From assembly GCA_964485195.1 (NCBI GenBank), contig CAZAIK010000001.1, forward strand, positions 124,001 to 188,000: a stretch of DNA of 64,000 bases, written 5' to 3'. The stretch comes from an uncultured Methanosarcinales archaeon. Lineage in GTDB: Archaea; Nanobdellota; Nanobdellia; Woesearchaeales; CAIVOO01. The position numbers were made by a program, and so were the translations under genes. Under the pieces are notes generated by a model, which was not told the origin of the DNA, ran no database searches, and saw only the letters and a list, made by a program, of their open reading frames with translations. Of this stretch, positions 40,122 to 64,000 are shown in pieces; positions within the stretch are counted from its first letter, which is position 1, and every line of letters starts with the position of its first letter.

Positions 40122-43100
40122 TTACTCCAGCAGATAGTTTATTATCTCAAGGTCAGAGGGATGGTAAGGGTTGATTTTGTCTGGGGTGAACACAGGCTGC
40201 AGAGGCAGTTTCACAAGCTTCTTCGCTATTACCCCCTCTAGTTCGCAGTTGCTCTCTATAGCTGACTGGAGAATTGCAGTGTTCTCCCCATAAGGAACTG
40301 TGTCTTCTTTTCCGTCTTGGCAAGAGATTATTCCGTCAAAGTTTATCACAGCTTCCTCATCCAGGGGCTGCCCTGCAATGTCCAGTTGAGGAATTTTCCA
40401 TTCAATAGTTAACTCTTCAGGAGTTTCCCCAGGCACTCTTGTTATTTCAACATATCCCGGGGGAACGTCATCGTAGCTTTGTCCTCTGGGTGTCTCAAGG
40501 ATGTTAACGCTTTCCAAGTCCCTGTTGTTCACAGCTGTTATCCCATAATAAATTTCCGCCCCTTCCGCAAGGCTGTCAATATAATAATATCTATTGGTGT
40601 CAGACTCATAAACCAGCATTCCTTCCCTGGGTCTTATATTTTGCGTGGCCACAGCTCCTTCAGTTTCCTCCACCTGGGCTTCCAGCTCAAAAACGCACTG
40701 CTTGAATCCTGTTGGAGAGCATTCCGGTACCAGGGTTATGGACTTCACTGCCATCTCATTTTGCGCATTTATGAATTCAGGATTGGCAGTTTCCTTAACA
40801 TCCTCTGATTTCTGGTTTGGAAAGCTGGTGTCCTGCTTGTACACATTGTATCCCACAACATTCCTTGCAGGGCTCCTGAACCAGCTTATTACCGTCAAGT
40901 CCCTGGCTCTAATGAGACTTTGGGATTCCACCCCCCTGACATCAGGAGGGGGGACATTGGGAGGCAGGAACGCAAATCTTATGGTGAGAGGCACTTCCTC
41001 AAATCTTTCCAGAGTCGGGTTTCTTGTTTCTATCTTGAGATTGTCATCCTTGCTCACAGCGCAGACCTTTATCATCTGGCTCTCGGCCTGGTGCTCAGGA
41101 AGGCCTGCCATAGGCTCCTGTGAAAAGGAGATTATGCCTGAGTTTTTGTTCATAACAATCCTGGACAAAGGACCTATCCTCTCATCCTGATAAACTAATT
41201 TTATTCCTCCTTCATTTATTATCTGCGAAGGAAATTCAACAACGTTCTCCATGGTAAAAAGAGAAAAGACATTCTCATCCCCTGTCAAGGACATATCATA
41301 TCTCTCTTCCGACACCTGCGTGAATGTTATGCTGTTTCCGGATTCCAAGGCATAATCGGGGTCAAAATCCTCCATCACGCAATAACCATTCTCGCCTGCC
41401 TGCAGGCAGGTATCATAAAACTCTGCAAAGTCGCTGAAAAACGCCTCGTCCGCATTCTCGCAATATGTTTCCCAGCCTATCTTTCCCCCAGAAGAGGGCG
41501 TTTCCTCCTCAAAATAATACTCCCTGTTCTGCTTGAAGAAATAGTGAAAGTCCTCATCTTCAGCTGTTTGCAGGGCAAAGCAGTCAATAGTCTGGGTCTC
41601 GCCGCACTGCTCCTCATCCTCAATCATATTTTTCATTCTGTCCTGCACTTTCCTGTAAGGCTCAAGCGAATAGTCCAAGACTGTGGAGAAAGAACCTGCT
41701 ATCAGGTAAGTTGCGAAAAGGATTTCGTCCTTTGCAGATGTTCCTGCATAATTTATCAAGGTTCCCGGAAGGCAGGGCTGAAGCTGCCTGCTTGCGTATG
41801 AAGTTTGCGTTCTGGGAACAACCGCAACAAAATTTGCAACCTTTCTCCCATCCCCGTCTGTCAGCTGCCTCTCACCTGCCCAGTTGTAATAATGCATTGT
41901 TGAGCCTCCCCCGTCAAGATTAACAACCTTCTCACAATTTTCATTGGCTTTAAGATAATCTTTTAGTTCATCTACATTTGCGCTGGTGGCAGTCACTAAT
42001 TTCACCTTATAATCAGGAGTTACGCAAACCTGGGTTCTGGGTCTTATGTCCGAAGCACTTTTAGCGCCGGCAACTGCGGAAGTAATTGAAGGGTTATCAA
42101 CTGCCATCTGCTTGAAATCCTTTTCAGAAAGTATCCTGGGAAGGTTATTTTCCACAAAAAAATACTCCTCAGCGAAATCGTGCGGGCCTTTTACCAGTTC
42201 GCCGTCTTCCACAAACCAGCCTAAAATCTTGCCCTGTTTGACCCACTCCTCACCCCCTTCTTCCCTGGCCCCGAAAAAGGCGCCGTTTACTCCGGCAACA
42301 AAATCAAGTCCGGGATATCTTTCAACTGCTGTCTTGAGATTGATAAGGCAGTAGCTACAGGTTCCTCCACCTATGTCCTCAATTATTGTCTTGGCAGACA
42401 ATGTTTTAATATCAAAATACTGGGGATCTGCCTCTATTATTCTTGTTCTTCCAAAGATGTTCAGCTCTTTGAGATTCAGTGCCGACTGGGGTATGCTTTC
42501 AGGGGCTCCGCTTTTTTCAAAGTCAAATTCAGGCTCTTTTTCCAGCTGGTCAAACCTTATGGCAAGGTGGCCTTCCTCAAACTCTTTGTTTTCGCCTGCC
42601 CTTGAAGCTGCCTCAGGCCACTGGCAGAGCTTTTTTGAAAAGGCATTTTTCCAGGAATTGGTTCCGTATTCAAAAACAGCTCCGTTGTTGTGAATATTAA
42701 CCCAGCCTGCCTGGCAAGCCAGTTTTATCCTCTTCTCGTAAGGAGCGCACAGGCTGGTGTCTATTGTTATGGAATCCCCTGATGCTGAGACAGAAACTAT
42801 TTTCAGCTGGCAGTTGTTTGCCCTGAAAACGCTGTTTAAGGAGTATAACGCGTCAGAGACAGGTTTTTTGAATTCGCATTTCCCCGCGCAGACAGTTTCC
42901 CCGTTTATTTCCTTGAGGGTCACCATAGGCTCGGCTTCAACATTCACATTGAGAGGCCCGCCTCCGAAAAAAGAGCCCGGCTGGCAGTTCTGGAACTGTA
43001 TTCCCGGTCCCGGTGCGGTTCTTTGATAATCTGCCACATATTTTTTTTTCAGTGCTTCAATTCTTGCCACAGACTCATCTATTCTTGACTCAGTAATAAT

Positions 43101-45335
43101 CCCCTTATTCACAGCTTCTTCTATGCCATCAATAAGTGTTTTAATGTTCGCCTCTGTTTGGGTATCTGATTTTTTATAATTAACAATCAAAAGTATGTCA
43201 ATCCCCGCTTCAACAGCGTCAACTGCGAGTTTCTTGTGGTCTTCCCTGTATTTAGGGCTGTCCCAGATGGAAACAGCCCCCAAATCATCGCTTATTACCA
43301 CACCATTGAAATTCTGCCTTGCCATCTGCACTATTGACGGGGAAACAACTGCTTGGTTTTCAGAATCTGTATTTTGATAGACAATATTAGACATCATTAT
43401 CGCGTCTGTATGCGGCTTGAGCGAATTAAAAACCTGCAGCTCTGCCTGGTCTAATGACAGCACTGCAACGCGCTCCTCATCGCTGTTCCTGGATTCGTCA
43501 CCATAACCCGGGAAATGCTTTATTGTGGCTGCAACATTATTCTGGTGAAGCCCCTTGATATATGCCCTTGACTTTTGCTTCACCACAGAAGGGTCTCCGC
43601 TGAAGGAACGGTCTATCTTTACCATCAAGGCATCTGGATCAGAAGCGACATCAACAACAGGAGCAAGGTCCATATTAATGCCCAAATCTTTCATTACTTT
43701 GCTCGCCTCAGACATCTTTTGGATTATCTGCTGTGCATTCCCCATATCTCTCGGGGCACCGGGATTGTAAATATGGGATATCCTGTTTATCCTGCCTCCT
43801 TCTATATCGCTTGAAACAAGCAAGGGGATGCTTGCCTTTGACTGGTAGCTTGATATCCTGCTGGTAATTTCCTGCACAGATGCTCTTCCCCCCGCACCCT
43901 GTGAATGGGGCACGGTCCCTGTCCCTTCATTGTCCTTCATTAATATTACTCCTCCCACCTGGTATTTCTCCACAAACTCCCCATTAGGGCCTGGGGTTGA
44001 CATTATCATCTGTGCAATCTTTTTCCTCAAGGGCAGGGAAGCCAGACTGACCTGCTGGAAAAGGTTTATTCCATTGCATCCAAAAACATCCCCAGTCTCA
44101 ACAACATTGCCGCAGACAGTAAGGGAATCTGCACTGACCTCAACTGTTGCAAAGATATGTTTGTTCTTGAGGTTTCTTTCATACTCAGTGTCCCCTCTTG
44201 GGTATCTTATGTTATTTGAGGAAACTGTGCCAGCAACTACCTGAAGTATCTTCCCCGAAGAAAAAGTTTTTTTGACATAGCAGTGCTGGTGCCCTGAAAA
44301 AACAGCCTTTATATGGGGATTTGCCTCAATTACTCCTTTCAGCCCATTAAGCCTGTCGTGTTTGTGCAATCCGCAGTCAATGCTGATGGCAGGCAGATGG
44401 GAAAGGATAATCGTGGGCTTGTCCTGATTCCCTGACAAGTCCTTTTCCAGCCAGTTTGAAAGGCTTCTGGACAGGGAAACGCCAGTGTAATCCAAAGCAA
44501 CAAAGTGATATCCTTCATAGTCAAAAGAGTAATATTCCGGCCAGTTGGAATCGTCAACAAAGTTGATATCAGCGGGTTTTTTGTCATTCCAGAACTGCTC
44601 ATATTCTCCCGGAGCATCGTTAAGGTCGTGGTTTCCCTTTACAGGGAGAATTGGAACTTTGGAAAGTTTTTCATAATCTTCAAACTTAAACTGGTCCTCC
44701 AGGGTGAAATCGCCAGCGTGGACTATGAAATCAGGATTTGTGTTAAGTATAGTGTCTGGGTTCTTAATGGGTGTTGTGTGGGTGTCGCTTATGACTGCAA
44801 AACTGAAATCCTGGGCTGAGGCAAAGCTGGCTGACAAGACTGCAATGAAGATGAAAACAGCGATTTTGGCAGGAATTTTCCTTTTTTTCCTGTGTCTTAT
44901 GAATAAAATTACCAAAATGAGTATTAATGCAACCATTATAAGAGCAAGTACAAGTATCCTGCTGCTTTCTTCCTCCTCTCCAATTAAATCTGAAAATGCC
45001 TCTTCAAGTAAGTTCCCCCCTTCCGCTTCAAATTCTTCCGGCCCTGTATAATACTGGTCTGCCCTGAATTCAGCCTCGTCCTTGCCATACTGTTCAGACA
45101 GCCTTTCAACAGCTTCCTCCTTGGAGAGGGTTATGCAGGTTCCGTTGCAGCAGTTCTCCCCTGCATAGTCCGAGGTGTTCCACATTGAAATTCCCACGCA
45201 CTCCTGGAATTCGTTGCACACATCCTTCCCACCCATATTCACGCAGGAATAATCCCAGTCTGCCTGCGCAGAAACATTTAAGGTTAAAAGCAAGATAAAA
45301 GCTGCAACTATTCCTGTTAATGAAATTTTCTTCAT
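40122..45335 (-). CDS. 1737-aa exported mosaic: metallophosphoesterase, GH3 (NagZ-like), eroded M15-like, phosphodiester glycosidase (NAGPA/DUF2233), C-terminal beta-rich domains
   Basis: DTH/HAGD/GNHD/GHQH; DIEGG/LAPVVD/KHFPGYG/ISDDL; VNGAFF/RPRT/NLDGGGST. Confidence 0.85.
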   Translation of the reverse strand: MKKISLTGIVAAFILLLTLNVSAQADWDYSCVNMGGKDVCNEFQECVGISMWNTSDYAGENCCNGTCITLSKEEAVERLSEQYGKDEAEFRADQYYTGPEEFEAEGGNLLEEAFSDLIGEEEESSRILVLALIMVALILILVILFIRHRKKRKIPAKIAVFIFIAVLSASFASAQDFSFAVISDTHTTPIKNPDTILNTNPDFIVHAGDFTLEDQFKFEDYEKLSKVPILPVKGNHDLNDAPGEYEQFWNDKKPADINFVDDSNWPEYYSFDYEGYHFVALDYTGVSLSRSLSNWLEKDLSGNQDKPTIILSHLPAISIDCGLHKHDRLNGLKGVIEANPHIKAVFSGHQHCYVKKTFSSGKILQVVAGTVSSNNIRYPRGDTEYERNLKNKHIFATVEVSADSLTVCGNVVETGDVFGCNGINLFQQVSLASLPLRKKIAQMIMSTPGPNGEFVEKYQVGGVILMKDNEGTGTVPHSQGAGGRASVQEITSRISSYQSKASIPLLVSSDIEGGRINRISHIYNPGAPRDMGNAQQIIQKMSEASKVMKDLGINMDLAPVVDVASDPDALMVKIDRSFSGDPSVVKQKSRAYIKGLHQNNVAATIKHFPGYGDESRNSDEERVAVLSLDQAELQVFNSLKPHTDAIMMSNIVYQNTDSENQAVVSPSIVQMARQNFNGVVISDDLGAVSIWDSPKYREDHKKLAVDAVEAGIDILLIVNYKKSDTQTEANIKTLIDGIEEAVNKGIITESRIDESVARIEALKKKYVADYQRTAPGPGIQFQNCQPGSFFGGGPLNVNVEAEPMVTLKEINGETVCAGKCEFKKPVSDALYSLNSVFRANNCQLKIVSVSASGDSITIDTSLCAPYEKRIKLACQAGWVNIHNNGAVFEYGTNSWKNAFSKKLCQWPEAASRAGENKEFEEGHLAIRFDQLEKEPEFDFEKSGAPESIPQSALNLKELNIFGRTRIIEADPQYFDIKTLSAKTIIEDIGGGTCSYCLINLKTAVERYPGLDFVAGVNGAFFGAREEGGEEWVKQGKILGWFVEDGELVKGPHDFAEEYFFVENNLPRILSEKDFKQMAVDNPSITSAVAGAKSASDIRPRTQVCVTPDYKVKLVTATSANVDELKDYLKANENCEKVVNLDGGGSTMHYYNWAGERQLTDGDGRKVANFVAVVPRTQTSYASRQLQPCLPGTLINYAGTSAKDEILFATYLIAGSFSTVLDYSLEPYRKVQDRMKNMIEDEEQCGETQTIDCFALQTAEDEDFHYFFKQNREYYFEEETPSSGGKIGWETYCENADEAFFSDFAEFYDTCLQAGENGYCVMEDFDPDYALESGNSITFTQVSEERYDMSLTGDENVFSLFTMENVVEFPSQIINEGGIKLVYQDERIGPLSRIVMNKNSGIISFSQEPMAGLPEHQAESQMIKVCAVSKDDNLKIETRNPTLERFEEVPLTIRFAFLPPNVPPPDVRGVESQSLIRARDLTVISWFRSPARNVVGYNVYKQDTSFPNQKSEDVKETANPEFINAQNEMAVKSITLVPECSPTGFKQCVFELEAQVEETEGAVATQNIRPREGMLVYESDTNRYYYIDSLAEGAEIYYGITAVNNRDLESVNILETPRGQSYDDVPPGYVEITRVPGETPEELTIEWKIPQLDIAGQPLDEEAVINFDGIISCQDGKEDTVPYGENTAILQSAIESNCELEGVIAKKLVKLPLQPVFTPDKINPYHPSDLEIINYLLE

Positions 45336-46534
45336 GATGTTATTCCTCTCAGCTGGTTTTCTGCCTCTGCCTGGAAATTGAGTATGGCTGGAACATAGCC
45401 CCTGATTTCCTTTGCCTTGGATCCGCTCATACCAACGCTTCTTGTTAACCCCGGGGTTATGTGGGCTGATACAGTTTCCCAGGAAGGGTCCTGTTCCCCT
45501 GTCCTCTTGATAGCTCTTCTGATAGTGTCAGGCCCTCCGTTGTAAGCTGCCAGCCCGAATTTTACCTTGTCAGTATAGCCATCAAATCGTGAAGTGTAAT
45601 CATAAAGGAGCTGGCAACCTGCGCGGATTGATTTCTCAGGGTCAAACCTGCCGTCATTGGCAGCATTGCAGGCTGCAGTTCCGTAAGTGCAGCTGCTTCC
45701 TGAACAGCTGCAGGGAGTGATATCCCCAAGGATATGAGAATATTCCCTTGCTGTTCCAAGGCAAAACTGGTTCAGGCCTGCACAGCCCGTCCAGGATATG
45801 GCAAATTTCTTTCCCCTGGACTCCTGGGTTATTAGCCCCACCATAAGGGAATCCTGCACTCCCAGGGGCGCGCAGTAATTTGAGACAAGATGACCGTATG
45901 TGTTTATGATAAAACTTATTGCTTCCTTGTTGGACTTGCCTACTGGGCCTGCAGGATAAGAGGCAGGAGGCAACGTGTAAGTGGTATAGCCTGTTTCTAT
46001 ATCATACTTTTTCATATCAAAGCTCAGGGGAACTATTGCATCTCCTGACACTATTGTTTTTTCTCTGCCTTCTTCCTCAAAGATGTTTATTTTGTAATTG
46101 TTGAACTGGGTGACGGGGCTTTCGGGAATCCTGAAAAAGTTGTCAATCTCTTCATTCATCTTGATTTCAAAAAGGTCTTTCACTGGTTTTCTGTTTTCAG
46201 AGACAGGAATGCACTCTTCCTCATCAAAGTCCCATATCATAAAATTGTAATGATTTCCGCAGGGGGAGTCAAAGGGCAGGCCGCCTTCATAAGCTGTCAG
46301 GAAATAGGCGTCCGGAGCTGCATATCCTGCTGCCATATCTATGTAGAACAAGGAGGATTCCGCTTCCTGATATGTCTGCGTTATCAGTTTGGACTTCATC
46401 CCCACATCCCCTTTCCTGGCGCTTTCATCCTGGTTCTTGTTGATGAAATAGAGCATAGCCCCTAAGGAAATTATCAGGAACACGCTTACCAAAGTGATGA
46501 AATATTTTCCTTTCTTGTTTTTGAACAGTTTCAT
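45332..46534 (-). CDS. Pilin-like protein with C-terminal lytic transglycosylase (SLT/GH23) domain
   Basis: KKG-hydrophobic N-terminus; ITQESRG, AGLNQF, LAAYNGG, EIRGYV. Confidence 0.88.
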   Translation of the reverse strand: MKLFKNKKGKYFITLVSVFLIISLGAMLYFINKNQDESARKGDVGMKSKLITQTYQEAESSLFYIDMAAGYAAPDAYFLTAYEGGLPFDSPCGNHYNFMIWDFDEEECIPVSENRKPVKDLFEIKMNEEIDNFFRIPESPVTQFNNYKINIFEEEGREKTIVSGDAIVPLSFDMKKYDIETGYTTYTLPPASYPAGPVGKSNKEAISFIINTYGHLVSNYCAPLGVQDSLMVGLITQESRGKKFAISWTGCAGLNQFCLGTAREYSHILGDITPCSCSGSSCTYGTAACNAANDGRFDPEKSIRAGCQLLYDYTSRFDGYTDKVKFGLAAYNGGPDTIRRAIKRTGEQDPSWETVSAHITPGLTRSVGMSGSKAKEIRGYVPAILNFQAEAENQLRGITS

Positions 46535-47118
46535 TCTAAATACACTTCTGCCTTTACAATATTTTGTTGGCCTGTGGGATATTGCACCTCTGCCATTAAT
46601 GTCTGTCCTGTTGTGCCGCAAATGCCTGTGCCGGGTCCCAGGGGGGACAGGATGGTTTTCTTTTTAATGAACCCCACTACATAAGGGGTTTTGGAACAAT
46701 GTAGGCTTTGCAAAGAAGGGTAAAAGACTGACAAGCAGGCACCTTCGCTGTCAAGCTTTTGTATATATGGCCTTATCTCTTCCATAACTGAATCAAAAAA
46801 TTCCGGCTTTTCAGCAACTGGATACCGGCCTGCCTCCACCTTGCTTATGCACTCGTCTTCATCTGCAACTTTCCCCAGGTATTCAGCGAACATTAATGTC
46901 CTGCCGTCTTCAAGGGTTACCGGGGCTCTAAGAACATTTAACAATTCAAGGCTGTAATCCGCCTTTAACGACTGCACATCCACCTCTGCCTTTGATTTGG
47001 TGTTTGTTGATACTATCAGTATTATGACTATTATGAAGAAAACAAAATATGCGAGCAGGGCGAAAACATCTGTAATGACTGATGTTCCTATTCCCTTTTT
47101 TGATTTTGAAATTTTCAT
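46531..47118 (-). CDS. Class III signal peptide (pilin-like) protein
   Basis: KSKKG|IGTSVITDVFALL. Confidence 0.75.
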   Translation of the reverse strand: MKISKSKKGIGTSVITDVFALLAYFVFFIIVIILIVSTNTKSKAEVDVQSLKADYSLELLNVLRAPVTLEDGRTLMFAEYLGKVADEDECISKVEAGRYPVAEKPEFFDSVMEEIRPYIQKLDSEGACLSVFYPSLQSLHCSKTPYVVGFIKKKTILSPLGPGTGICGTTGQTLMAEVQYPTGQQNIVKAEVYLE

Positions 47119-50241: not shown

Positions 50242-50243
50242 TC

Positions 50244-50552: not shown

Positions 50553-50553
50553 C

Positions 50554-56603: not shown

Positions 56604-59600
56604 TTTTCTTCTTTTTCTTTTTTTGAAGTTTTTCTATTTCCTCCTCCTTTTTTCCCCTGCCCACTCTTTCCAGCTTCTCAAACTCGGTTTCTCCCTTGAG
56701 CTTGCCCAGTTTTTCAAAGTAATCCTCTGCCTCCTTTTTCACTTTTCCCAGCTTTTCAAAAACACCCTTCTTTTCCGGGGCTTTCTTGGCAGGCCTTTTC
56801 AGGGGGAGTTTCTTGGCAGGCTTTGCAGCCTTTTTAACAGGAGGCTTCTTCGGCGGTTCGAGCTTCTCAGGCTTTTTCTCCGTCCCTTTCTTTGGCGCGC
56901 CGAATGCCTCGAACAGGCTTTTCCTTTTCTTTTCCTTCTCTTCCCTCTCCCTTCTCAGCTGTTCCTGAACAGTCATCCTTTTTATCTTTTCCTCGGGCGT
57001 TAGCTCTTTTTTCTCTGGCTTTGCTGTGGGCCTGGCTGGGGGGCCAGCAGGTCCTGGTGCAGGTGCTGAGGGTTTTGTCGGCTGATGTTTTTTGTAGAAC
57101 AGGTAGCCAGACCCCCCAAGAATGCCCAAAGCGCCCAAGATAAGGAATACTACTTTCAGTATGCCAAGCAGTCCCAGCCCTTCCTCTCTTACCGGTGCAG
57201 GCCCTGCCTCTCCCGGCTCCAAAGGTTCCTGCACGCACTTGCCCCCGAAGCAGCTGTTAGTTATGCAATCAGAATCCACTTCGCAAAACTTTCCTCTTGC
57301 ACACGCGTTGCACACAGGGCCTCCGCAGTCAACATCAGTCTCGTTTCCGTTTGTAATATTGTCATTGCAGGAAGGCAGCTGGCAGGTTTCTGTTGATGGC
57401 GCGCAAAATCCTGACTGGCAGTCTGAATTCCTTTCACAGCTCTGGTTTACAGAGCATTTCGGGCAGAGGAAACCCCCGCAGTCAACATCTGTTTCGTGCC
57501 CGTTTTTCATCTGGTCTGAGCAGGAGGCCTGCTGGCATATTCCTTCAAAACAGTAATTGGATGTGCAGTCAGAATCCACCTCGCAGTTTTCATTTATATC
57601 GCACCTCACGCAGGTAGTTTCACCACCGCAGTCAACATCTGTTTCCCCCCCGTCCTGTATGTTGTTGGAGCAGCTTATGCTGCTTTCAAATTTAATCCTT
57701 TCCGCTCCTGCCCTTACATTGCCTGCGACATCCTCAGCCCTGTAGCAGAAATACCCTTCCTGGGATACTGAAGCGGCAAATGCTTCTCTTTCTGAATCAT
57801 AGGCCAGGCTCTGATAGTTTCCTGTGCAGTTGGCATCGTCAGAAAGCTGGTATTCATATGTTAAGTTATTGCAGCTGGTTTCTGCGTCAATGCATACAAG
57901 TGTAACTATAACTCTTGTGGCTGTTGTGTTCTGCCTCAAAAAAACTGAAGGGGGTGTTTTGTCACAGAGCACTCCGGTCTCATCGTAAACTATGTCATTG
58001 CCCCTTCCTTCTGTGCTTGAAAGCCCTGCATTGTTGACAGCGACTGCGGTGAAATAGTATTTGGTGTGGTTTGAGAGGTTCAGGTTTTCTTCAGTGGCTG
58101 AAGAGGATGACGTGAACTTGTTGGTGACATTAACCCCCTCGCCAATGATGCTGTAGTTATAACCCCTGATGCCTGACTGGTTGTCAACTGCGCTGAAATC
58201 CGCGGACATCTTTTTGCTGCAGGTTGCGTTGGGAGAGATTATTGAGGGTGATGAAGGAGGTGATTTGTCGATAGTAACTGAAAATTCTCTTGTGGCTGAT
58301 GTGGCAGCCCTCCCTACGCAGCTGACTTCAAGGGTGTATGTGCCTTCAGGATATTCTCCAGGGATGCTTCCTGTATGTGCTGTCTGCTCCTCATCTGACT
58401 CCAGGTTGCCCGAAGTCTCGTTAAAGACATAAGAGCAGTCAGCCAGCCTGTTAGTTGTTATATTAATAAATAGTGTGCTGTTCTGGGTGAAGCTCGGGGG
58501 GCTTATCTTGTTTATTTGCAAAGGACGTAAAAGGTTCACTGAAATGGTTACCTCCCTCGTGTCTGAAACCCTTTTAGGCCCGTAGTCATTTACATCAAAG
58601 GTCGCCCTGTTGATGCAGGCCACGTTAAAGACAAACTTGTATATTCTTGAAACATCTGTGACGTTATCTGTCAAATCTATTGTCGTGGAAGGGTTCTTCA
58701 CGTATTTGCTTTCATTTGATTCATCCCCAAAGCTTCCGAAATAATTGGGCATTTGAGAGAAATCATCCTGTATTGGAGTGTAAATTTCCGTGTTGTCCTC
58801 TGTTCGGGAGAAGTTAAAGTCGCTGTAGCGGCAAACCGCCTTGTCATCAGACGTCAGTCTTAATGTTGACCTTATTTTTCCCTCTACCCTGTCAGTCACC
58901 ACTTCAGGGTCTGCTTCCAGGGAAAGTATCTTGGGAGGGGTGGTGTCGTAAGAGATCTTCAGTGTTTTTGGGTTAATCCTTCCCCGAGGAACATCTATGC
59001 AGAAAATGTATATGGGCTTTTCCTTTCCGTCCAGAAGGCCAAAGCCGGTATTTGCAGAGGCGTTATTGAAATTAGCTATGGTATGGACAGTGGAGGTAAT
59101 GTCAGGAAAGCTGAATGTTGCATCCTCATAATGTGCTGGGTAAGAATCGTACTTGCACCCGTAGGAAGTTTCCTCAGTTTCAATGGAAAAGTCAAAAACA
59201 GGAGTGGGAGAGACTGACAGTGGAGGGTTGTTGAACCTTATGTCCATGTACGGAACATCCACTGTTATGGTCTGGGTGGTGTTTATGGTGTTGCCCACTA
59301 TGTCAGAGGCAAATACATAAAGAGTGTAGTTGCCGTTGCCCAGGGGCACTGTGGTGTTAAGTTCAAACTCATCACTTACCCCGCCTTCAGGAACATTGAT
59401 GAATTCCAAGGGATAATTCCGGCCTGTTTCGTCAGTGAGATTTACCTTAATGTCGCTCACATTCACCAGGGTAACAGCATTCATTGAAGTCTTGGAAAAC
59501 TTTATGGTTATCTTTGGAAAAACAGAGGTTTTTTCCACAAGCGCGTGGGAAATGTAGATTGAGCTAATTAAAACAGCCAGTATTATTATAGACAATGAAA

Positions 59601-59613
59601 TTATTTTTTTCAT
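56593..59613 (-). CDS. Large surface protein: Ig-like repeats, three ETDVDCGG Cys-rich repeats, TM, Pro/Lys-rich cytoplasmic tail
   Basis: Signal peptide; DxxGN and DTTPP Ig motifs; TM ending YLFYKK. Confidence 0.85.
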   Translation of the reverse strand: MKKIISLSIIILAVLISSIYISHALVEKTSVFPKITIKFSKTSMNAVTLVNVSDIKVNLTDETGRNYPLEFINVPEGGVSDEFELNTTVPLGNGNYTLYVFASDIVGNTINTTQTITVDVPYMDIRFNNPPLSVSPTPVFDFSIETEETSYGCKYDSYPAHYEDATFSFPDITSTVHTIANFNNASANTGFGLLDGKEKPIYIFCIDVPRGRINPKTLKISYDTTPPKILSLEADPEVVTDRVEGKIRSTLRLTSDDKAVCRYSDFNFSRTEDNTEIYTPIQDDFSQMPNYFGSFGDESNESKYVKNPSTTIDLTDNVTDVSRIYKFVFNVACINRATFDVNDYGPKRVSDTREVTISVNLLRPLQINKISPPSFTQNSTLFINITTNRLADCSYVFNETSGNLESDEEQTAHTGSIPGEYPEGTYTLEVSCVGRAATSATREFSVTIDKSPPSSPSIISPNATCSKKMSADFSAVDNQSGIRGYNYSIIGEGVNVTNKFTSSSSATEENLNLSNHTKYYFTAVAVNNAGLSSTEGRGNDIVYDETGVLCDKTPPSVFLRQNTTATRVIVTLVCIDAETSCNNLTYEYQLSDDANCTGNYQSLAYDSEREAFAASVSQEGYFCYRAEDVAGNVRAGAERIKFESSISCSNNIQDGGETDVDCGGETTCVRCDINENCEVDSDCTSNYCFEGICQQASCSDQMKNGHETDVDCGGFLCPKCSVNQSCERNSDCQSGFCAPSTETCQLPSCNDNITNGNETDVDCGGPVCNACARGKFCEVDSDCITNSCFGGKCVQEPLEPGEAGPAPVREEGLGLLGILKVVFLILGALGILGGSGYLFYKKHQPTKPSAPAPGPAGPPARPTAKPEKKELTPEEKIKRMTVQEQLRREREEKEKKRKSLFEAFGAPKKGTEKKPEKLEPPKKPPVKKAAKPAKKLPLKRPAKKAPEKKGVFEKLGKVKKEAEDYFEKLGKLKGETEFEKLERVGRGKKEEEIEKLQKKKKKKNEK
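57240..57675 (-). repeat. Three tandem Cys-rich ETDVDCGG coding repeats (about 50 aa each)
   Basis: CCGCAGTCAACATC recurs near 57325, 57476 and 57627. Confidence 0.85.
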
Positions 59614-59628: not shown

Positions 59629-62600
59629 TTATCCTGCACCGCTTATGCACTTCTCATAATCCGAAGGTGAGCCTTTGAAAACATCGCACAAGTCCGTGGC
59701 TCCTGATGCAGCCACGAAATCCATTATGCATTTTTTCTTGAAGCCAGGCACATACGCATCGTCACAGAGCTCTGCCAGCCTAACATCTTTTGTAATGCCT
59801 CCTGCAGCTGCCAATAGAGAAACATAGCATTCATAATCTATAAGTTGTGTGTCTTCTTCTGTGCACATACTTGAAATGTGGGAGTTGTAGCAATCCAAAA
59901 ATGTCTGTTGATCTGCCGCGCAGATGTCCACCACTTCCTCAATGGTTTGCGGGGGATCAGGACCCTCTCTTATTATCTCGCTGCACTCGGTGGGGGAGAT
60001 GCAGATAACTATTGAAGGCTTTTCTATATCTGAATATATGAGTTTTGATGTTTCCCCTGTGTTGCCTGCCCTGTCCCTTGCAATTATCTTTATCTTGTTT
60101 GTTATTACCTCGCCTTCCCTCCCCACGACTGTGGTGTTAATAGCGGGCATTACAAAGGCGCCTGTCTCATTGTTGATGCAGGCCACTTCCAAAGAGGACT
60201 TGCACGGGAACACCCTTCCTATCAGTTCCCTGCTGGCGTCTCCTGTGACCCTGTAAAATGATAACTCTGCAACATCTGTAGGCACTATTCCGGAGATGTT
60301 CACTATGTCTTTCTGGACAATGTAAATTAAAGACTCATTTCCGCTAACAGAGGGCAAGGAGTACCTATAAATAGGCCTTGCGTTTATTTCTATATTTACG
60401 GGGTTGAGGGCTGGCGCTGTCTCGTCAATTGTTATCCTGGCTGTCTGGCTGTCATCGTAATTCATCCCGTAATCTGACAGGTTCAGCCTTATTGCGTATG
60501 ATTGCCCGTCTTCAAGGTCCATTCCATCCAGAAAGGCTTTCTGCATGTTGCGGGGAGGGACTCTTCCCCTGATGTCCTGCTGGGTTATTTTCAGTGTTTC
60601 ACCCTCAAGGTTGAATGTCTGTCCGTCCTGGTCTGTTATGCTGATGTCTGCAATCACGTTGTGCTTTTCGTTCAGCACCATAGCTGAAAAGTTAATGCCT
60701 GCGTCGCGCCTCATATACTCATTTGCTATGGTGAAGTTCTGCACTATGGGGGCTTCTGTGTCCCGCACGAAGTAGAATATGTCAGGAGAGCCCTTTGAGA
60801 CAAATGTTTCGTCTGCAAAGACTTTAATGGGCATTATTTTGAGGTGATAGTCGCCGTCCTCAAATGATGGAATCTGCATGGTGCACCTGAAATTGTCAAA
60901 GCTTCCCGTCCTGGCGCACTCAACAGTCCCGTTTCCCACAGGAACGTCCAGCTCTGCCCTGCCTATCTCCACTATGGAAGTGGTGAATTCTTCTTCCTCC
61001 ACATAGCTTGCCCCCACTATGGGTATTCCGTTGACGAAATGATACTTGGTGTCGTTGGCTATGAAAACATCGTTCAGTATGGTGAAAGTAGGAATCCTCG
61101 GAAGCTTTGAGTCAACTGTCAAGTTCCAAGCGTGATTGACAAAGTTGTTTGCCTTGTCGCCCGCCTTCATCTTTATCAGGTAATTGCCGTCCTGGTCTGC
61201 CTCAAAATTGTAGGAGATGCTATAAGAAGCTGTAACTCCTGCATTTTCATCAAATTCAAAGGATTTTGTGGTTATGTTTATCTTGTCATTTTTTACGCGC
61301 GCCCCGTTGATGGTGAGGTTTATGTTGTCCTTTCTCAGGCCAGAGCCCTTTTCCAGCACAGTCATTGTTATCCTGTCTATCTTCTTCAGCCTGCCCTGAC
61401 TGACTTCAGGCTCTAATCCTGTGATGTTAGGAGGGACTGCGTCCACAATTACGTCCAGCTTGTTGGTGGGAACTCCCAGGTTGCCTAGTTCATCATACTG
61501 TATTAGCTGGGCTGTGTGCATTTCATACCTTGCGTTTGGGTTTATGGGTATGGACATGTTAAACCTGTCCGGCTTGATGTGCATATTGCTGAATATCATT
61601 TGCTCTCCCTGCCCCACCTCTTCTTCAAGCGGTATGTCAAGGGTTATTACTGTTCCCTGGCCTTCCACAAACTGCACATCATTTACATTGTATGCCTCCT
61701 TGTAATGGCCGTATTCCTTCCTGTGATGGCCTCCGAATCTGACATAAGTTTCTCCGAGCGTGTTGATCCTTGTAACCTCATCTCCTGGTATTAATACCTG
61801 GCTTTCCCCTTTCCTTGCCCTGGCTCCTGCTTCCAGGTTGGTTATTTCTGCGTATTGCTCTAGCGAAAGCTGCTGGTATTCAGCTACAAGAGAATCATCT
61901 GCAAACAGTTGCAGCTTAACCCCTGGTTCAGATGTGTGGCCTGTGAGGTAAGCCCTGCCTTCCCTTGCGCCCACATAATACCTGTCCTCTTTCTCGTCGT
62001 AATGAAGGGGATATCCTAAAATGTCGTAGTTTTCCCCTAAACTGTTCTGCTCGTTGGTGATGGGCGGGTCAAATGCTGGGGGCTTCAAAGGACCTACCTG
62101 GTCTATTATCACAAACACGTTGTCTTCTCCCATATTGCCTGCTGCGTCTCTTGCCCTCACAGACAATAATCCTTGATTGTTAAGAAAGAGCAGTGCTGAA
62201 ACATTAACGTCGGCCCTGAAGCTTCCGTCACTCTGTATTTGCGTCTTTTGCGCCTGCTCCACCCCATTGATTGCGAAAGACACCTCTCCGCTAAGTGCTG
62301 AGGTTGAGGAATTGTCAATTATTACCAAGTTGGAGAAGGAATCATTTCTGGTTAAGTTCATATACCCCTCCTGTGCAATTCTTTCAAAAGTGCCGTAGGT
62401 TAATCCGTTTATTATAATCTCTGCACTTGCTCCCTGCGCATTGATGGTCACATTTACAGGGGGCCCTGCAGTGAAGGATTCTGTGCCCAAGACCTGTCCT
62501 GCCTGACCATACCTTATCAGGTCATCATCAAAGTCAATCTGCACAAAGTCGTAGAAGTTTTCAGAGCTGTAGTCAAAGATTATTTCTGCAAAGTCCTGAG

Positions 62601-64000
62601 CATTCACCTCTGCATCAAGCAGGAAGTCCCTGAAATAAACAGGGAGGAATCCTCCGCGGTCAGCCCAGTAAGCAGGGTTCTGCACAATACCTTCAACTGA
62701 GATTGTTTCGCCGGGAACTCTGCAAGCTGGCACCCCTCCTGGATTTGTGCACTTGCCTGACAAGCCCGTGATGGTAATTCTTGGGGAGGACACATCCACC
62801 TTTATCTGCTCGCATTCTGTATCTCCTGCATTACCTCCCCTGTCCATTCCGTTAAAGCACAATGTTTGCGTCTGGTTAATGGAAAGCTGGACCTCTGTTC
62901 CATTAACCTCTCCCTCCGAGGATTCTGCAATGACGGGCTGGGGAGTGCATTGTGACTGCAATGCCGTGCAGTAATTTAACACTTCACAGCCGAACTCGCC
63001 TATTGGATAATTAGGCACTGGGTCTATGGCGGGCGTGGGAGGGTCAACGCACTTCAGCAGTATGCTGGCCTGGTTTTTCCACCTGGAAAGGTTATACTCC
63101 TTCTCTACAATTCTTTCCCCTGCCTCAAATATCTTTATTTCAGGCGCAAGATTGTCAACAGTGAACCTTATCCCTGCAACCTCGCTGCTTGTGAGATTCC
63201 CTGTCTCCACAAGCCTGCACCTCACAAGATACATCTTTGCAATCGCGTCTTCCACTATTGAAACTGGCGAGGAGTGGAGTTTGCCGTTGGTCTGCTCAAA
63301 GGTAACCATTTCGTCAAAGCTTATGCCCTGCAGTGTGGTGAATGCAAACTTGCCGTTTGCGTCCAGAGGCACGTCCATATATCTGCAGGCGGCGTCTGCC
63401 CTTGTCCTTATTGAAATTTCAGAAACATCCTCTTTCTTGACAGTGGTGTTTGGCTGACCGTCATAAATCATGTCCTCTGTGTCCACCACTATCAGCTGTT
63501 CCTCTGAAATTTTGTTTCCAACCCAGTCTGTGCAGTTGTACTGGTATGTGTAAACTCCTGAAAGCACGTCAAAGGAGTCTGAGAATGATTTCCCTATCCT
63601 TCCCTGGACTCCTGCCTCTCCTGCGACAATGCTTCCTGAATCATCATAAATGTTCGCAGTGCAGTTCAGGTATTCTGTTGAGTTTATTGTTGTTCTTAGC
63701 AAGGCATTGGCCTTTTCATAATAGTAGGAGAATGTTACAGGAGGGGGTACAAAGTCTATGTATATGTTGAATGATTTCACGACTTCAAGGTTGTCTGCAT
63801 CATCCCTTGAATAGAAGAACACTGTATAGTTCTTATCACTGGCAGGCAAGCCTGCCCAGGAGATAAACCCGTTTTGGGCGGACAGGTTGGGCCTTGTATA
63901 TGCCATAGGACGGCCTTCAATCACCTCTGCTATCTGGAAGAAGGTTTCTGCATTGGGACTTATGAAGCTCCTGTCCTGGTCATCCCATACTGTGACAGGA
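59629..64000 (-). CDS. Giant Ig-like repeat surface protein (5' end outside window)
   Basis: Repeated DxAGN and DxxxP motifs, Cys-rich C-terminus; frame open to the window edge. Confidence 0.82.
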   Translation of the reverse strand, partial: PVTVWDDQDRSFISPNAETFFQIAEVIEGRPMAYTRPNLSAQNGFISWAGLPASDKNYTVFFYSRDDADNLEVVKSFNIYIDFVPPPVTFSYYYEKANALLRTTINSTEYLNCTANIYDDSGSIVAGEAGVQGRIGKSFSDSFDVLSGVYTYQYNCTDWVGNKISEEQLIVVDTEDMIYDGQPNTTVKKEDVSEISIRTRADAACRYMDVPLDANGKFAFTTLQGISFDEMVTFEQTNGKLHSSPVSIVEDAIAKMYLVRCRLVETGNLTSSEVAGIRFTVDNLAPEIKIFEAGERIVEKEYNLSRWKNQASILLKCVDPPTPAIDPVPNYPIGEFGCEVLNYCTALQSQCTPQPVIAESSEGEVNGTEVQLSINQTQTLCFNGMDRGGNAGDTECEQIKVDVSSPRITITGLSGKCTNPGGVPACRVPGETISVEGIVQNPAYWADRGGFLPVYFRDFLLDAEVNAQDFAEIIFDYSSENFYDFVQIDFDDDLIRYGQAGQVLGTESFTAGPPVNVTINAQGASAEIIINGLTYGTFERIAQEGYMNLTRNDSFSNLVIIDNSSTSALSGEVSFAINGVEQAQKTQIQSDGSFRADVNVSALLFLNNQGLLSVRARDAAGNMGEDNVFVIIDQVGPLKPPAFDPPITNEQNSLGENYDILGYPLHYDEKEDRYYVGAREGRAYLTGHTSEPGVKLQLFADDSLVAEYQQLSLEQYAEITNLEAGARARKGESQVLIPGDEVTRINTLGETYVRFGGHHRKEYGHYKEAYNVNDVQFVEGQGTVITLDIPLEEEVGQGEQMIFSNMHIKPDRFNMSIPINPNARYEMHTAQLIQYDELGNLGVPTNKLDVIVDAVPPNITGLEPEVSQGRLKKIDRITMTVLEKGSGLRKDNINLTINGARVKNDKINITTKSFEFDENAGVTASYSISYNFEADQDGNYLIKMKAGDKANNFVNHAWNLTVDSKLPRIPTFTILNDVFIANDTKYHFVNGIPIVGASYVEEEEFTTSIVEIGRAELDVPVGNGTVECARTGSFDNFRCTMQIPSFEDGDYHLKIMPIKVFADETFVSKGSPDIFYFVRDTEAPIVQNFTIANEYMRRDAGINFSAMVLNEKHNVIADISITDQDGQTFNLEGETLKITQQDIRGRVPPRNMQKAFLDGMDLEDGQSYAIRLNLSDYGMNYDDSQTARITIDETAPALNPVNIEINARPIYRYSLPSVSGNESLIYIVQKDIVNISGIVPTDVAELSFYRVTGDASRELIGRVFPCKSSLEVACINNETGAFVMPAINTTVVGREGEVITNKIKIIARDRAGNTGETSKLIYSDIEKPSIVICISPTECSEIIREGPDPPQTIEEVVDICAADQQTFLDCYNSHISSMCTEEDTQLIDYECYVSLLAAAGGITKDVRLAELCDDAYVPGFKKKCIMDFVAASGATDLCDVFKGSPSDYEKCISGAG

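What the first reader, a model, noticed from the sequence alone, without database searches (positions are those of the whole stretch)
40122..64000. Archaeal type IV pilin supercluster ending in a peptidoglycan-attack module: candidate pilus-borne system against bacteria
Seen: about 24 kb of co-oriented, mostly overlapping genes. About 18 carry class III (KK[GAS]-hydrophobic) signal peptides, two are giant Ig-like proteins, and the distal genes encode SLT, Amidase_3-like, GH3, M15-like and phosphodiester glycosidase domains. Established: SLT, NagZ-type GH3, Amidase_3 and M15 act on bacterial murein, which archaea do not make, and many DPANN archaea are host-dependent. Inference: the cell displays wall-binding and wall-cutting domains on a pilus to attach to, breach or scavenge bacteria, implying a bacterial host or prey. 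No assembly ATPase or prepilin peptidase lies in this window.
Basis: partly seen in the sequence, partly recalled or inferred. Interest (0 to 1): 0.92.

Follow-up and report, generated by a model that had tools for sequence, protein, structure and literature searches.

The report
Woesearchaeal pilin-like operon ending in wall-cutting enzymes
A tiny, probably host-dependent archaeon carries a conserved operon of about 17 pilin-like surface proteins whose last member is fused to an enzyme that cuts bacterial cell wall, which fits the published idea that these archaea attach to or feed on bacteria and gives it a concrete machine to test.

Summary
The gene cluster is real, lies on the minus strand and is archaeal. 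One rule for a short basic leader, [KR][GAS], then a hydrophobic helix is met by 16 of 17 consecutive genes (45335-56603) and by 2 of 51 other ORFs in the window. The last of the 17 carries an SLT lytic transglycosylase with an invariant catalytic Glu-Ser. The next gene is a membrane-anchored 1737-aa protein with Metallophos, NagZ-like GH3 and NAGPA domains.

The M15 domain is only a decayed remnant here, but its signature motifs are kept in the ortholog.

A Candidatus Woesearchaeota MAG (L001) holds the same locus gene for gene, including the flanking RPA and YdjM genes. Metagenomic relatives of the SLT protein often add M23, Amidase_2 or M15_4 domains behind the same N-terminus, which points to bacterial murein as the substrate.

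That Woesearchaeota and Pacearchaeota SLT proteins may attack bacterial walls is already in print. The link to pilin-like leaders and a conserved operon appeared in none of the papers I found or read.

Membership in the type IV pilin family is unproven: no pilin HMM hit, inconclusive folds, and no assembly genes in the window. Display on a pilus is inference. I rate it a new variant of a known kind.

The parts
59629..64000 (-). Giant secreted surface protein, at least 1456 aa; its 5' end lies beyond the window
   Evidence: Open frame to the window edge. Weak Big_13 hit, E 6.3e-7. Weak OmpL47-type and Ca_tandemer hits, all below cut-off.
56593..59613 (-). 1006-aa surface protein: N-terminal signal or anchor, Ig-like region, three Cys-rich repeats (NGxETDVDCGG...), a C-terminal membrane helix and a Lys-rich tail
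   Evidence: Sequence read directly. Big_13 E 2.6e-7.
56121..56603 (-). Pilin-like protein, 160 aa (MRNKA|QIGQ...)
   Evidence: Meets the motif rule. 57% identical to L001:38-526.
55087..56124 (-). Pilin-like protein, 345 aa (MKFSMKKG|AIEIQ...)
   Evidence: 48% to L001:486-1568. Atlas neighbours are hypothetical-protein clusters, 91-100% Archaea, commonest phylum Nanobdellota.
54594..55085 (-). Best-conserved pilin-like protein, 163 aa (MRKKS|QIKIGES...)
   Evidence: 19 homologs at 56-82% identity, two of them named Ca. Woesearchaeota. Leader length varies while the K[KR][SA]Q motif is kept. The AF2 model has a long helix 4-58 and four strands but low confidence, pLDDT 62.5. No Foldseek hit at E<=0.001.
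54055..54597 (-). Pilin-like protein, 180 aa (MKKA|QTEMLG...)
   Evidence: 54% to L001:2115-2672. Weak NCBIfam PilV hit over the N-terminal helix, E 0.0088, below cut-off.
53166..53936 (-). Pilin-like protein, 256 aa (MNKKA|MQESL...)
   Evidence: 34% to L001:2800-3516.
52262..53164 (-). N-terminally anchored protein, 300 aa. It is the one cluster gene without the KK[GAS] motif in this genome
   Evidence: Fails the rule. Its L001 ortholog (30% identity) has MNKKA|L....
50933..52080 (-). One pilin-like gene (MKKKG|AVGY...) split by the 100-N scaffold gap at 51408-51507; Cys-rich C-terminal part
   Evidence: N run located. The N-terminal part matches L001:4598-5581, E 7e-5. The neighbours on both sides of the gap have L001 orthologs in the same order.
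49467..50853 (-). Five tandem small subunits (81-99 aa): M.KK[GA] leader, hydrophobic helix, and a 6-Cys knob. Candidate shaft subunits
   Evidence: Aligned with the five L001 counterparts. A knob HMM finds only these ten in both loci. Best hits are collinear except 49730-49999, whose best hit is a neighbouring paralog.
48582..49424 (-). Pilin-like protein, 280 aa (MQGKKG|IVWS...)
   Evidence: 32% to L001:7057-7953.
47633..48544 (-). Pilin-like protein, 303 aa (..RQKKG|QWEIL...)
   Evidence: 39% to L001:7989-8915.
47115..47636 (-). Pilin-like protein, 173 aa (MKSKKA|MGAY...)
   Evidence: 47% to L001:8932-9480.
46531..47118 (-). Pilin-like protein, 195 aa (MKISKSKKG|IGTS...)
   Evidence: 27% to L001:9477-9971.
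45335..46534 (-). Modular pilin-like lytic transglycosylase, 400 aa: leader MKLFKNKKG|KYF..., carrier domain about 40-170, disordered linker 178-195, SLT domain about 200-400
   Evidence: Pfam SLT E 4.5e-16. E238, S239, G253, Q256, Y331, N332 and G334 are invariant in 34 of 34 aligned relatives. AF2 pLDDT 87. Foldseek top hits are MltF, MltE and Slt70, with 56 hits at E<=0.001. The family has 690 cluster representatives at E<=0.001.
40122..45335 (-). Membrane-tethered multi-enzyme, 1737 aa: Sec signal, Cys-rich ectodomain, membrane hairpin (about 125-146 and 156-173), Metallophos 178-353, NagZ-like GH3 436-760, decayed M15 remnant about 780-900, NAGPA 1013-1172, and about 560 aa without a family
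   Evidence: The L001 ortholog (1698 aa, 33-36% identity) has a second NAGPA in the GH3 slot and keeps the VanY/M15 signature motifs.

Best explanation
This is a conserved Woesearchaeota operon for a surface assembly related to type IV filaments.

Most likely steps (all inferred):
1. A class III signal peptidase encoded elsewhere in the genome trims the short basic leaders of about 17 pilin-like proteins.
2. Their hydrophobic N-terminal helices are assembled by an ATPase and platform protein, also encoded elsewhere.
3. The five small Cys-knob proteins form the shaft. The larger ones form base or tip complexes.
4. The last subunit is a modular pilin-like protein whose grafted module is an active family-1 lytic transglycosylase. 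On contact with a bacterium it cuts the glycan strands of murein.
5. The next gene product stays tethered to the archaeal membrane. It processes what is exposed or released: GlcNAc-terminated muropeptides (NagZ-like GH3) and phosphodiester-linked wall polymers such as teichoic acids (Metallophos, NAGPA).

The outcome would be attachment to, local breaching of, or feeding on a bacterial partner.

Shown here: the genes, motifs, domains, catalytic-residue conservation and synteny. Inferred: leader cleavage, filament assembly, tip display, the substrates and the bacterial partner.
For: (1) Motif enrichment: 16 of 17 cluster genes against 2 of 51 other ORFs. The [KR][KR][GAS] motif is kept between orthologs while leader length varies. 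That pattern is expected for a cleavage site, not for a plain membrane anchor.

(2) L001 has a counterpart, in the same order, for all 17 pilin-like genes, the SLT gene among them. Sixteen match at 27-69% identity and the gap-split gene matches at E 7e-5. The giant enzyme and the flanking RPA (65%), YdjM (51%), ArsR (40%) and KH (60%) genes are collinear too. The locus is therefore old, vertically inherited and under selection as a unit. Homologs of the SLT gene and of the 163-aa gene also share 'longest contig' lengths in two more cases, 117,842 and 17,571 bp. This is indirect.

(3) The SLT module looks active. Its Pfam score is above cut-off. The ES, G..Q and YN.G positions are invariant in 34 of 34 relatives. 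The fold matches MltF, MltE and Slt70.

(4) Murein as substrate. Of 64 family representatives scanned, 59 have SLT, 17 have Peptidase_M23, 9 Amidase_2 and 3 Peptidase_M15_4. In all, 21 of 64 carry at least one further murein hydrolase, and 17 of those 21 have a class III-like N-terminus by my regex. The giant enzyme of L001 keeps the VanY/M15 signature motifs.

(5) The carrier N-domain also occurs without SLT, for example in a 210-aa protein matching query residues 1-181. That fits a modular carrier-plus-effector design.

(6) Literature, passages read. In DPANN the T4F ATPase and platform lie apart from the scattered pilins, and class III signals can 'functionalize' T4F machines (PMC13705601). 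Modular pilins carry grafted modules, probably at pilus tips (PMC8179133). Extracellular calcineurin-like phosphoesterases are fused to NAGPA in bacteria, and PhoD degrades teichoic acid (bioRxiv 10.1101/2024.03.27.587046).
Against: No Pfam or NCBIfam pilin model matches any of the 17 proteins above its cut-off. Full-length scans were run at E<=0.01. For the 50-residue N-termini at E<=10, 0 of 17 hit an archaeal pilin or class III model. The best related hits are TadE at 0.053 and PilV at 0.0088.

The confident SLT-protein model (pLDDT 87, pTM 0.55) shows helices 7-41 and 46-82 broken at a conserved glycine, not one canonical alpha-1 helix on a sheet.

The 163-aa model has a pilin-like topology but is low-confidence (pLDDT 62.5) and finds no pilin in the PDB: 0 hits at E<=0.001.

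No ATPase, platform protein or prepilin peptidase lies in the 64-kb window or within 10 kb of the L001 match. The rest of either genome could not be searched. He et al. 2020 (preprint, passage read) state that T4P components are missing in DPANN.

The giant enzyme is cell-tethered, not pilin-like.

In the GH3 domain the D-S-H triplet of solved NagZ enzymes reads N-S-D, so its activity or mechanism may differ. The role of that triplet is recalled, not tested here.

The M15 domain is decayed in this genome.

Only one syntenic genome was located. The taxonomy of the metagenomic family members is unknown (searches gave nothing).

No bacterial partner is shown.
Confidence: 0.5

Rival explanations
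1. Bindosome-like 'hydrolasome'. The class III-type proteins form a short, cell-proximal pseudopilus or envelope scaffold. It holds the murein hydrolase at the cell surface to scavenge free peptidoglycan, teichoic acid fragments and necromass for GlcNAc, MurNAc and phosphate. No dedicated bacterial host and no long pilus are involved.
For: Class III signals on non-filament proteins are established for the Sulfolobales bindosome and were recently proposed to be widespread (PMC13705601, passages). The giant enzyme is tethered to the cell. Its domain set (phosphoesterase, exo-GlcNAcase-like, NAGPA) suits processing of fragments better than breaching a wall. The SLT-protein N-domain is not a canonical pilin fold in the model.
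Against: An operon of 17 conserved subunits, with five conserved small paralogs, is far more than known bindosomes need (three pilins are named in the passage). No ABC transporter or binding protein lies in the cluster. Relatives stack endo-acting M23, Amidase_2 and SLT domains, which is typical of enzymes that attack intact sacculi.
Confidence: 0.27
2. Not type IV filament proteins at all. The KK[GAS]-hydrophobic N-termini are uncleaved signal anchors of type II membrane proteins. The operon encodes a lineage-specific envelope complex in which the SLT and giant enzymes are ordinary membrane-bound exoenzymes.
For: No pilin HMM hit. No pilin in the structure searches. No assembly genes nearby. 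He et al. 2020 say T4P is missing in DPANN.
Against: K[KR][SA]Q is kept behind leaders of 2 to about 25 residues in 20 homologs. [KR][GAS] is kept across orthologs and K8 in at least 90% of 34 SLT relatives. A plain anchor would not need this. Many have Q at +1 and an acidic residue a few positions later, as I recall for archaeal pilins. PMC13705601 reports T4F core genes in 2942 Nanobdellati genomes, scattered away from the pilins.
Confidence: 0.15
3. Self-directed remodelling. The enzymes act on a glycan wall of the archaeon itself, or on a pseudomurein or other glycan wall of an archaeal host, to let the apparatus pass. Bacterial specialised lytic transglycosylases of pili and secretion systems work this way.
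For: In bacteria, SLT genes in pilus, flagellum and secretion clusters serve exactly this role (recalled). The best NCBIfam hit for the SLT protein is a flagellar-assembly lytic transglycosylase, far below cut-off. GH23, GH3 and NAGPA enzymes can also act on other GlcNAc polymers; MltE was crystallised with chitopentaose (entry title).
Against: No murein synthesis gene is in the window. Published passages state that murein transglycosylases are normally absent from archaea, which lack murein. From established chemistry, lytic transglycosylases need the C6-OH of MurNAc to form the 1,6-anhydro bond, and pseudomurein has a uronic acid there. Amidase_2, M23 and M15 partners in relatives target the D-amino-acid peptide stems of bacterial murein.
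Confidence: 0.05
4. Assembly artefact: a bacterial fragment joined to an archaeal contig at the N gap, or a chimeric bin.
For: A 100-N scaffold joint lies inside the cluster. The catalytic domains are of bacterial type.
Against: The same gene order spans the equivalent of both sides of the gap and continues into archaeal RPA, YdjM, ArsR and KH genes in an independent Woesearchaeota MAG. GC content stays between 0.43 and 0.48 across 38001-64000.
Confidence: 0.02

Closest known systems
Large extracellular SLT-domain proteins of Woesearchaeota and Pacearchaeota ('fam00969' of Castelle et al. 2021, PMC8204110; GH23 genes of Vigneron et al. 2022, PMC9723730; three ODZ MAGs in PMC10936187). Passages read
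   Same: Same phylum-level group, same catalytic domain, and the same proposed role: binding and degrading bacterial murein, with an episymbiotic or 'vampiristic' lifestyle. The long relatives found here (up to 2730 aa) fit 'proteins up to 3,000 aa'.
   Different: The words 'pili' and 'pilin' occur 0 times in the first two papers, and 'pili' and 'pilus' 0 times in the third. None of the passages read describes a conserved multi-gene operon, the class III-like leader, or the neighbouring Metallophos/GH3/NAGPA enzyme. Whether the 400-aa protein belongs to fam00969 could not be checked, because the family's sequences were not at hand.
Bacterial modular type IV pilins, e.g. PilB of Streptococcus sanguinis (Raynaud et al. 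2021, PMC8179133; passages read)
   Same: An N-terminal carrier with a class III-type leader, joined by a linker to a grafted functional module. That paper lists more than 1,200 such proteins in 264 architectures, some with a peptidase module, and suggests display at the tip.
   Different: Those are bacterial, are recognised by the IPR012902 pilin signature, and carry mostly binding modules. Here the host is an archaeon, no pilin signature is detected, the carrier fold is not canonical in the model, and the module is a murein-cutting enzyme aimed at another organism's wall.
Sulfolobales bindosome and the class III-signal substrate-binding proteins proposed to 'functionalize' archaeal T4F machines (PMC13705601; passages read)
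   Same: Archaeal non-pilin proteins given a class III leader so that a T4F base machine places them at the surface. The cargo genes lie away from the ATPase and platform genes.
   Different: That cargo is binding proteins next to ABC transporters. Here the cargo is a hydrolase that closes a 17-gene pilin-like operon, and no transporter lies in the cluster.
Specialised lytic transglycosylases encoded in bacterial pilus, flagellum and secretion clusters (recalled; sub-threshold NCBIfam hit to a flagellar-assembly lytic transglycosylase)
   Same: An SLT gene embedded in the operon of a surface appendage.
   Different: Those enzymes open the producer's own sacculus. An archaeon has none, so the target must be foreign.
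Extracellular calcineurin-like phosphoesterases of bacteria (the ShfP radiation; PhoD) with NAGPA fusions (bioRxiv 10.1101/2024.03.27.587046; passages read)
   Same: A secreted or membrane-anchored Metallophos domain combined with NAGPA and adhesion-type domains. Proposed or shown substrates are teichoic acids and other surface phosphodiesters.
   Different: Here the protein is in an archaeon, is fused in addition to a NagZ-like GH3 and an M15 remnant, and follows a pilin-like operon.

Membership tests
Type IV pilin / archaeal T4F subunit | Short basic leader ending in [KR][GAS], followed at once by a hydrophobic helix of about 20 residues | tested here: met
   16 of 17 cluster genes against 2 of 51 other ORFs by one rule. 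The motif is kept in L001 orthologs and in 20 homologs despite variable leader length. The rule is my own, not a published predictor.
Type IV pilin / archaeal T4F subunit | Match to curated pilin or class III signal models | tested here: not met
   No such Pfam or NCBIfam hit above cut-off in full-length scans. 0 of 17 N-termini hit an archaeal pilin or class III model at E<=10. The best related hits are TadE at 0.053 and PilV at 0.0088.
Type IV pilin / archaeal T4F subunit | Pilin fold: a long N-terminal alpha-1 helix packed on an antiparallel sheet | tested here: inconclusive
   The 163-aa model has helix 4-58 plus four strands, but pLDDT is 62.5 and Foldseek gives 0 hits at E<=0.001. The SLT-protein carrier domain has two helices broken at a glycine plus small sheets.
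Type IV pilin / archaeal T4F subunit | [quoted passage not shown] | tested here: inconclusive
   None in the window or in the L001 stretch. The rest of both genomes could not be read. A scattered layout is reported as usual in DPANN.
Type IV pilin / archaeal T4F subunit | Leader removed, and subunit found in a filament | not testable with these tools
   Needs proteomics and imaging.
Family-1 lytic transglycosylase (Pfam SLT, CAZy GH23) | Domain model above the curated cut-off | tested here: met
   58.7-58.9 bits against a cut-off of 21.3. The L001 ortholog scores 86.4 bits.
Family-1 lytic transglycosylase (Pfam SLT, CAZy GH23) | Catalytic Glu-Ser and the G-L-x-Q and A-Y-N-x-G motifs (motif names recalled) | tested here: met
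   QES at 237-239, GLNQ at 253-256 and AAYNGG at 329-334 in the mature-start numbering. E238, S239, G253, Q256, Y331, N332 and G334 are invariant in 34 of 34.
Family-1 lytic transglycosylase (Pfam SLT, CAZy GH23) | Goose-lysozyme-like fold of solved lytic transglycosylases | tested here: met
   Foldseek gives 56 hits at E<=0.001, topped by MltF (4p0g), MltE (2y8p) and Slt70 (1qte). Sequence search of the PDB alone found none.
Family-1 lytic transglycosylase (Pfam SLT, CAZy GH23) | Cleaves murein to 1,6-anhydromuropeptides | not testable with these tools
   Needs an enzyme assay.
NagZ-type GH3 beta-N-acetylglucosaminidase | GH3 N-terminal domain closest to solved GlcNAcases | tested here: met
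   Pfam E 9.7e-52. PDB 6k5j at 7.3e-27, then YbbD/NagZ and LpqI. NCBIfam equivalog score is 104.7 against a cut-off of 207, so it is not an equivalog.
NagZ-type GH3 beta-N-acetylglucosaminidase | KHFPG motif, nucleophile Asp, and the Asp-x-His acid/base dyad (roles recalled) | tested here: not met
   KHFPG and the Asp in GVVISDD align with the solved enzymes. The D-S-H of all three aligned enzymes reads N-S-D here.
NAGPA phosphodiester glycosidase | Domain model above cut-off | tested here: met
   49.9 bits against 25. The L001 ortholog has two stretches and scores 97.1 bits.
Calcineurin-like phosphoesterase (Metallophos) | Domain model above cut-off and the five metal-binding motifs | tested here: met
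   53 bits against 21.5. SDTH, AGDF, GNHD, SH and GHQH are read directly (motif list recalled; the passage speaks of five conserved motifs).
Peptidase M15 (VanY-like) | Domain model, with the H-x6-D and final His metal ligands | tested here: not met
   No hit in the window at E<=5 or E<=1. The H-x6-D segment is deleted and WH reads AV. The L001 ortholog keeps the motifs but scores below cut-off (E 0.007-0.012).
Amidase_3 (MurNAc-L-Ala amidase) | Domain model | tested here: not met
   No hit in any cluster protein. Some relatives of the SLT protein carry Amidase_2, a different family.

The most novel reading that the evidence does not exclude
Woesearchaeota build a dedicated, unusually complex type IV filament of 17 or more subunit types. 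Its terminal subunit is a murein-cutting enzyme, which would make it an archaeal 'drill' for cross-domain attachment to and parasitism of bacteria. Lineage-specific swaps of the warhead (SLT alone; M23, Amidase_2 or M15 plus SLT; GH3 or NAGPA in the companion enzyme) would track the wall type of the bacterial host.
Probability: 0.3. Interest if true: 0.85.

Novelty: new variant of a known kind. Interest (0 to 1): 0.62.

Why it matters
No Woesearchaeota or Pacearchaeota has a cultured host, to my knowledge. All cultivated DPANN archaea live on archaeal hosts (PMC11291902, abstract in the search listing).

Published work has noted SLT genes in these lineages and guessed at bacterial partners. 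This locus turns that guess into a defined apparatus: a conserved operon, a likely delivery route (class III leader), an enzyme with an intact active site, and a companion enzyme set.

It yields direct tests:
- leader cleavage;
- enzyme activity on sacculi of different chemotypes;
- antibodies or tags for cryo-ET;
- HMMs to map which lineages carry which warhead.

It also bears on the statements that DPANN lack, or rarely show, ordered T4F loci. Current pilin models miss all 17 proteins, so such systems may be under-counted.

Tried and rejected
(1) Amidase_3 and M15 in the window. Pfam at E<=0.01 on all ORFs, at E<=5 on the unexplained segments, and NCBIfam gave nothing.

(2) Synteny search. 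The search for related loci with four close SLT homologs found no relative. An 8-sequence alignment found one locus, L001. The synteny claim therefore rests on one genome plus two indirect contig-length coincidences.

(3) Word-indexed homolog searches. The SLT protein gave three hits besides itself. Residues 770-1737 of the giant enzyme gave only itself, so the distribution of that architecture is unknown beyond L001.

The Atlas gave no usable hit for P0045. It stays unchecked whether the M23/Amidase_2/SLT forms are archaeal.

(5) Pilin fold. The 163-aa model is low-confidence, and Foldseek returned ribosomal and sensor-domain noise. The search with the SLT-protein model was dominated by the SLT domain, so its carrier domain was not compared on its own.

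(6) By eye, the Cys-rich N-terminal domain of the giant enzyme resembled the knob of the small subunits. An HMM built from the ten knobs does not find it at E<=10. Rejected.

(7) No complex-prediction job was sent; filament subunits are a poor case for it.

The wider distribution of the operon in metagenomes stayed unchecked.

(9) Supplementary tables of PMC8204110 and PMC13705601 were not opened. They may list this family, or Woesearchaeota T4F components.

Full report
WHAT IS THERE

From 40122 to the window end at 64000, every long ORF is on the minus strand. Most junctions are 4-nt overlaps or gaps of a few bases. In the direction of transcription the order is:
- a giant secreted protein cut by the window edge (59629-64000, at least 1456 aa);
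- a 1006-aa surface protein with Ig-like signal, three Cys-rich repeats, a C-terminal membrane helix and a Lys-rich tail (56593-59613);
- 17 consecutive genes from 56603 down to 45335 (sizes between 81 and 400 aa);
- a 1737-aa gene (40122-45335).

Directly downstream lies an archaeal RPA gene (39086-40096). A 100-N scaffold gap at 51408-51507 splits one of the 17 genes.

THE CONTIG IS ARCHAEAL AND WOESEARCHAEAL

The other 40 kb encode RadA, RadB, topoisomerase VI A and B, a KH/Dim2-like protein and ribosomal protein S2. A 117-nt tRNA is seen only by Rfam, which suggests an intron.

The one related locus found in the GTDB genome collection is from a Candidatus Woesearchaeota MAG (L001). Two homologs of the 163-aa protein are named Ca. 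Woesearchaeota. The Atlas neighbours of the 345-aa protein are Nanobdellota hypothetical proteins.

THE CLASS III-LIKE N-TERMINI

One explicit rule asks for at least two K/R, then [KR][GAS], then 16 or more of 18 uncharged residues. It is met by 16 of the 17 genes and by 2 of 51 other ORFs in the window. The exception is 52262-53164, whose L001 ortholog does carry MNKKA.

Between orthologs, and among 20 homologs of the 163-aa protein, the leader varies from about 2 to 25 residues while K[KR][SA]Q stays fixed. That is what a peptidase recognition site would look like.

Against family membership:
- No curated pilin model matches above its cut-off, and 0 of 17 N-termini hit an archaeal pilin or class III model at E<=10.
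- The 163-aa model has the right topology (helix 4-58 and four strands) but pLDDT 62.5 and no PDB match at E<=0.001.
- No ATPase, platform protein or peptidase lies in the window or in L001.

A 2026 survey reports that in DPANN these core genes are usually apart from the scattered pilins (PMC13705601, passages). Their absence here is therefore weak evidence.

THE FIVE SMALL GENES

The genes at 49467-50853 encode 81-99 aa proteins. Each has a leader, one hydrophobic helix and a six-cysteine knob. All five have counterparts in L001. A knob HMM finds only these ten in both loci. I take them as shaft-subunit candidates. This is inference.

THE SLT PROTEIN (45335-46534)

It starts MKLFKNKKG|KYF. 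A conserved domain of about 130 residues follows, then a disordered linker (178-195) and an SLT domain. The model is confident (pLDDT 87). Its C-terminal half matches MltF, MltE and Slt70, with 56 Foldseek hits at E<=0.001.

An exhaustive profile-free search found 690 cluster representatives at E<=0.001, of which 42 are at E<=1e-30. Many align over residues 5-390. My regex of 153 N-termini class III-like. In 34 aligned members the Glu-Ser pair and the G..Q and YN.G positions are invariant.

Pfam scanning of 64 representatives found:
- SLT in 59;
- Peptidase_M23 in 17;
- Amidase_2 in 9;
- Peptidase_M15_4 in 3;
- a GDSL lipase in 2, one of them below cut-off;
- a sub-threshold Glucosaminidase in 1.

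Together, 21 of 64 stack a second or third murein hydrolase behind the same kind of N-terminus. Enzymes for the glycan, the amide and the peptide bonds of murein, combined again and again, are hard to explain by any substrate other than bacterial peptidoglycan. The organisms that encode those relatives could not be established.

THE 1737-AA PROTEIN

It is not pilin-like. It has a Sec-type signal, a Cys-rich ectodomain and two hydrophobic helices around RHRKKRK, which looks like a membrane hairpin. After that come:
- Metallophos, with all five metal motifs readable;
- a GH3 domain closest to solved beta-N-acetylglucosaminidases;
- a remnant of a VanY/M15 domain;
- NAGPA;
- about 560 residues without any family.

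In the GH3 domain, KHFPG and the putative nucleophile Asp align with solved enzymes, but their D-S-H reads N-S-D.

The L001 ortholog is 33-36% identical. It has a second NAGPA where the window has GH3, and it keeps the SPFRS, HYNGYAMD and EGWHFEY signatures that the window copy has lost. The enzyme set is therefore modular and changes between lineages.

Bacterial extracellular calcineurin-like phosphoesterases are also fused to NAGPA, and PhoD degrades teichoic acid (passages). This makes wall phosphodiester polymers a reasonable target. That is inference.

SYNTENY

L001 matches the window gene for gene from the KH gene through ArsR, YdjM, RPA, the giant enzyme and the SLT protein. All 17 pilin-like genes have a counterpart in order: 16 at 27-69% identity and the gap-split gene at E 7e-5. 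RPA is 65% identical.

L001 ends before the two giant upstream genes, so they are untested. The match on both sides of the N gap argues against a chimeric join.

INTERPRETATION

The best reading is a type-IV-filament-like surface assembly whose terminal, modular subunit presents a lytic transglycosylase to a bacterial wall, backed by a cell-tethered enzyme array (confidence 0.5). Confidence by element:
- murein as substrate: about 0.75;
- class III processing and co-assembly: about 0.6;
- display on an extended pilus tip: about 0.35.

The main rival is a bindosome-like, cell-proximal scaffold for scavenging wall debris (0.27). Then come plain signal anchors (0.15), self or archaeal-host wall remodelling (0.05) and an assembly artefact (0.02).

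WHAT IS KNOWN

SLT proteins in Woesearchaeota and Pacearchaeota, and the idea that they bind and degrade bacterial walls, are in print (PMC8204110, PMC9723730, PMC10936187; passages). Modular pilins (PMC8179133) and class III 'functionalization' of archaeal T4F machines (PMC13705601) are also published.

Six full-text searches were run. Four bore on this question. One search covered DPANN pilins and class III signal peptides, and one search covered NAGPA, NagZ and teichoic acid. Neither their listings nor the passages I read in the papers I opened mention an archaeal pilin-like protein fused to a murein hydrolase, or this operon. Supplementary tables were not opened. I rate the finding a new variant of a known kind, with interest 0.62.

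Noticed in passing
window 1121-2863 (+): The NifU/IscU-like gene is interrupted by an intein with a LAGLIDADG homing endonuclease (NifU_N E 1e-36, LAGLIDADG_3 E 4e-18, weak Intein_splicing). It sits next to a class V aminotransferase (cysteine desulfurase-like) gene at 15-1124.
   Followed up: no
window 29822-29938 (-): Rfam finds a tRNA spanning 117 nt against a 71-position model (49.6 bits). ARAGORN finds no tRNA anywhere in the window. It probably carries an archaeal-type intron.
   Followed up: partly
window 51408-51507: A run of 100 N (a scaffold joint) lies inside a cluster gene. The frames on its two sides differ, so the real gap length is unknown.
   Followed up: yes
window 16581-16916 (+): A MazF/PemK-type toxin gene (E 7.8e-18) lies directly after radA. 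The next two small ORFs (16923-17533) have no family and look low-complexity, so no obvious antitoxin was identified.
   Followed up: no
L001 13150-14200 (+), inside the 1698-aa ortholog: The ortholog of the giant enzyme keeps a full VanY/M15-type signature (SPFRS, HYNGYAMD, EGWHFEY) and has a second NAGPA domain where the window has GH3. The catalytic cassette is exchanged between lineages.
   Followed up: yes
window 56593-59613 (-), residues about 640-800: Three tandem Cys-rich repeats (NGxETDVDCGG..C..C....C..DSDC.S..C) precede the C-terminal membrane helix. The cytoplasmic tail is about 190 residues long and extremely rich in Lys, Glu and Pro. No family was assigned.
   Followed up: no
window 7525-14295 (-): A copper/heavy-metal P-type ATPase with an HMA domain and an ArsR-type regulator are followed by several small membrane or secreted proteins without a family. 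One of them (13636-14295) also has a basic leader and hydrophobic helix, but it does not meet the KK[GAS] rule.
   Followed up: no
window 43026-44048 (-), GH3 domain: The D-S-H triplet conserved in the three best solved NagZ-type enzymes reads N-S-D here, while KHFPG and the GVVISDD aspartate are kept. The domain may use a different acid/base or act on a different substrate.
   Followed up: partly
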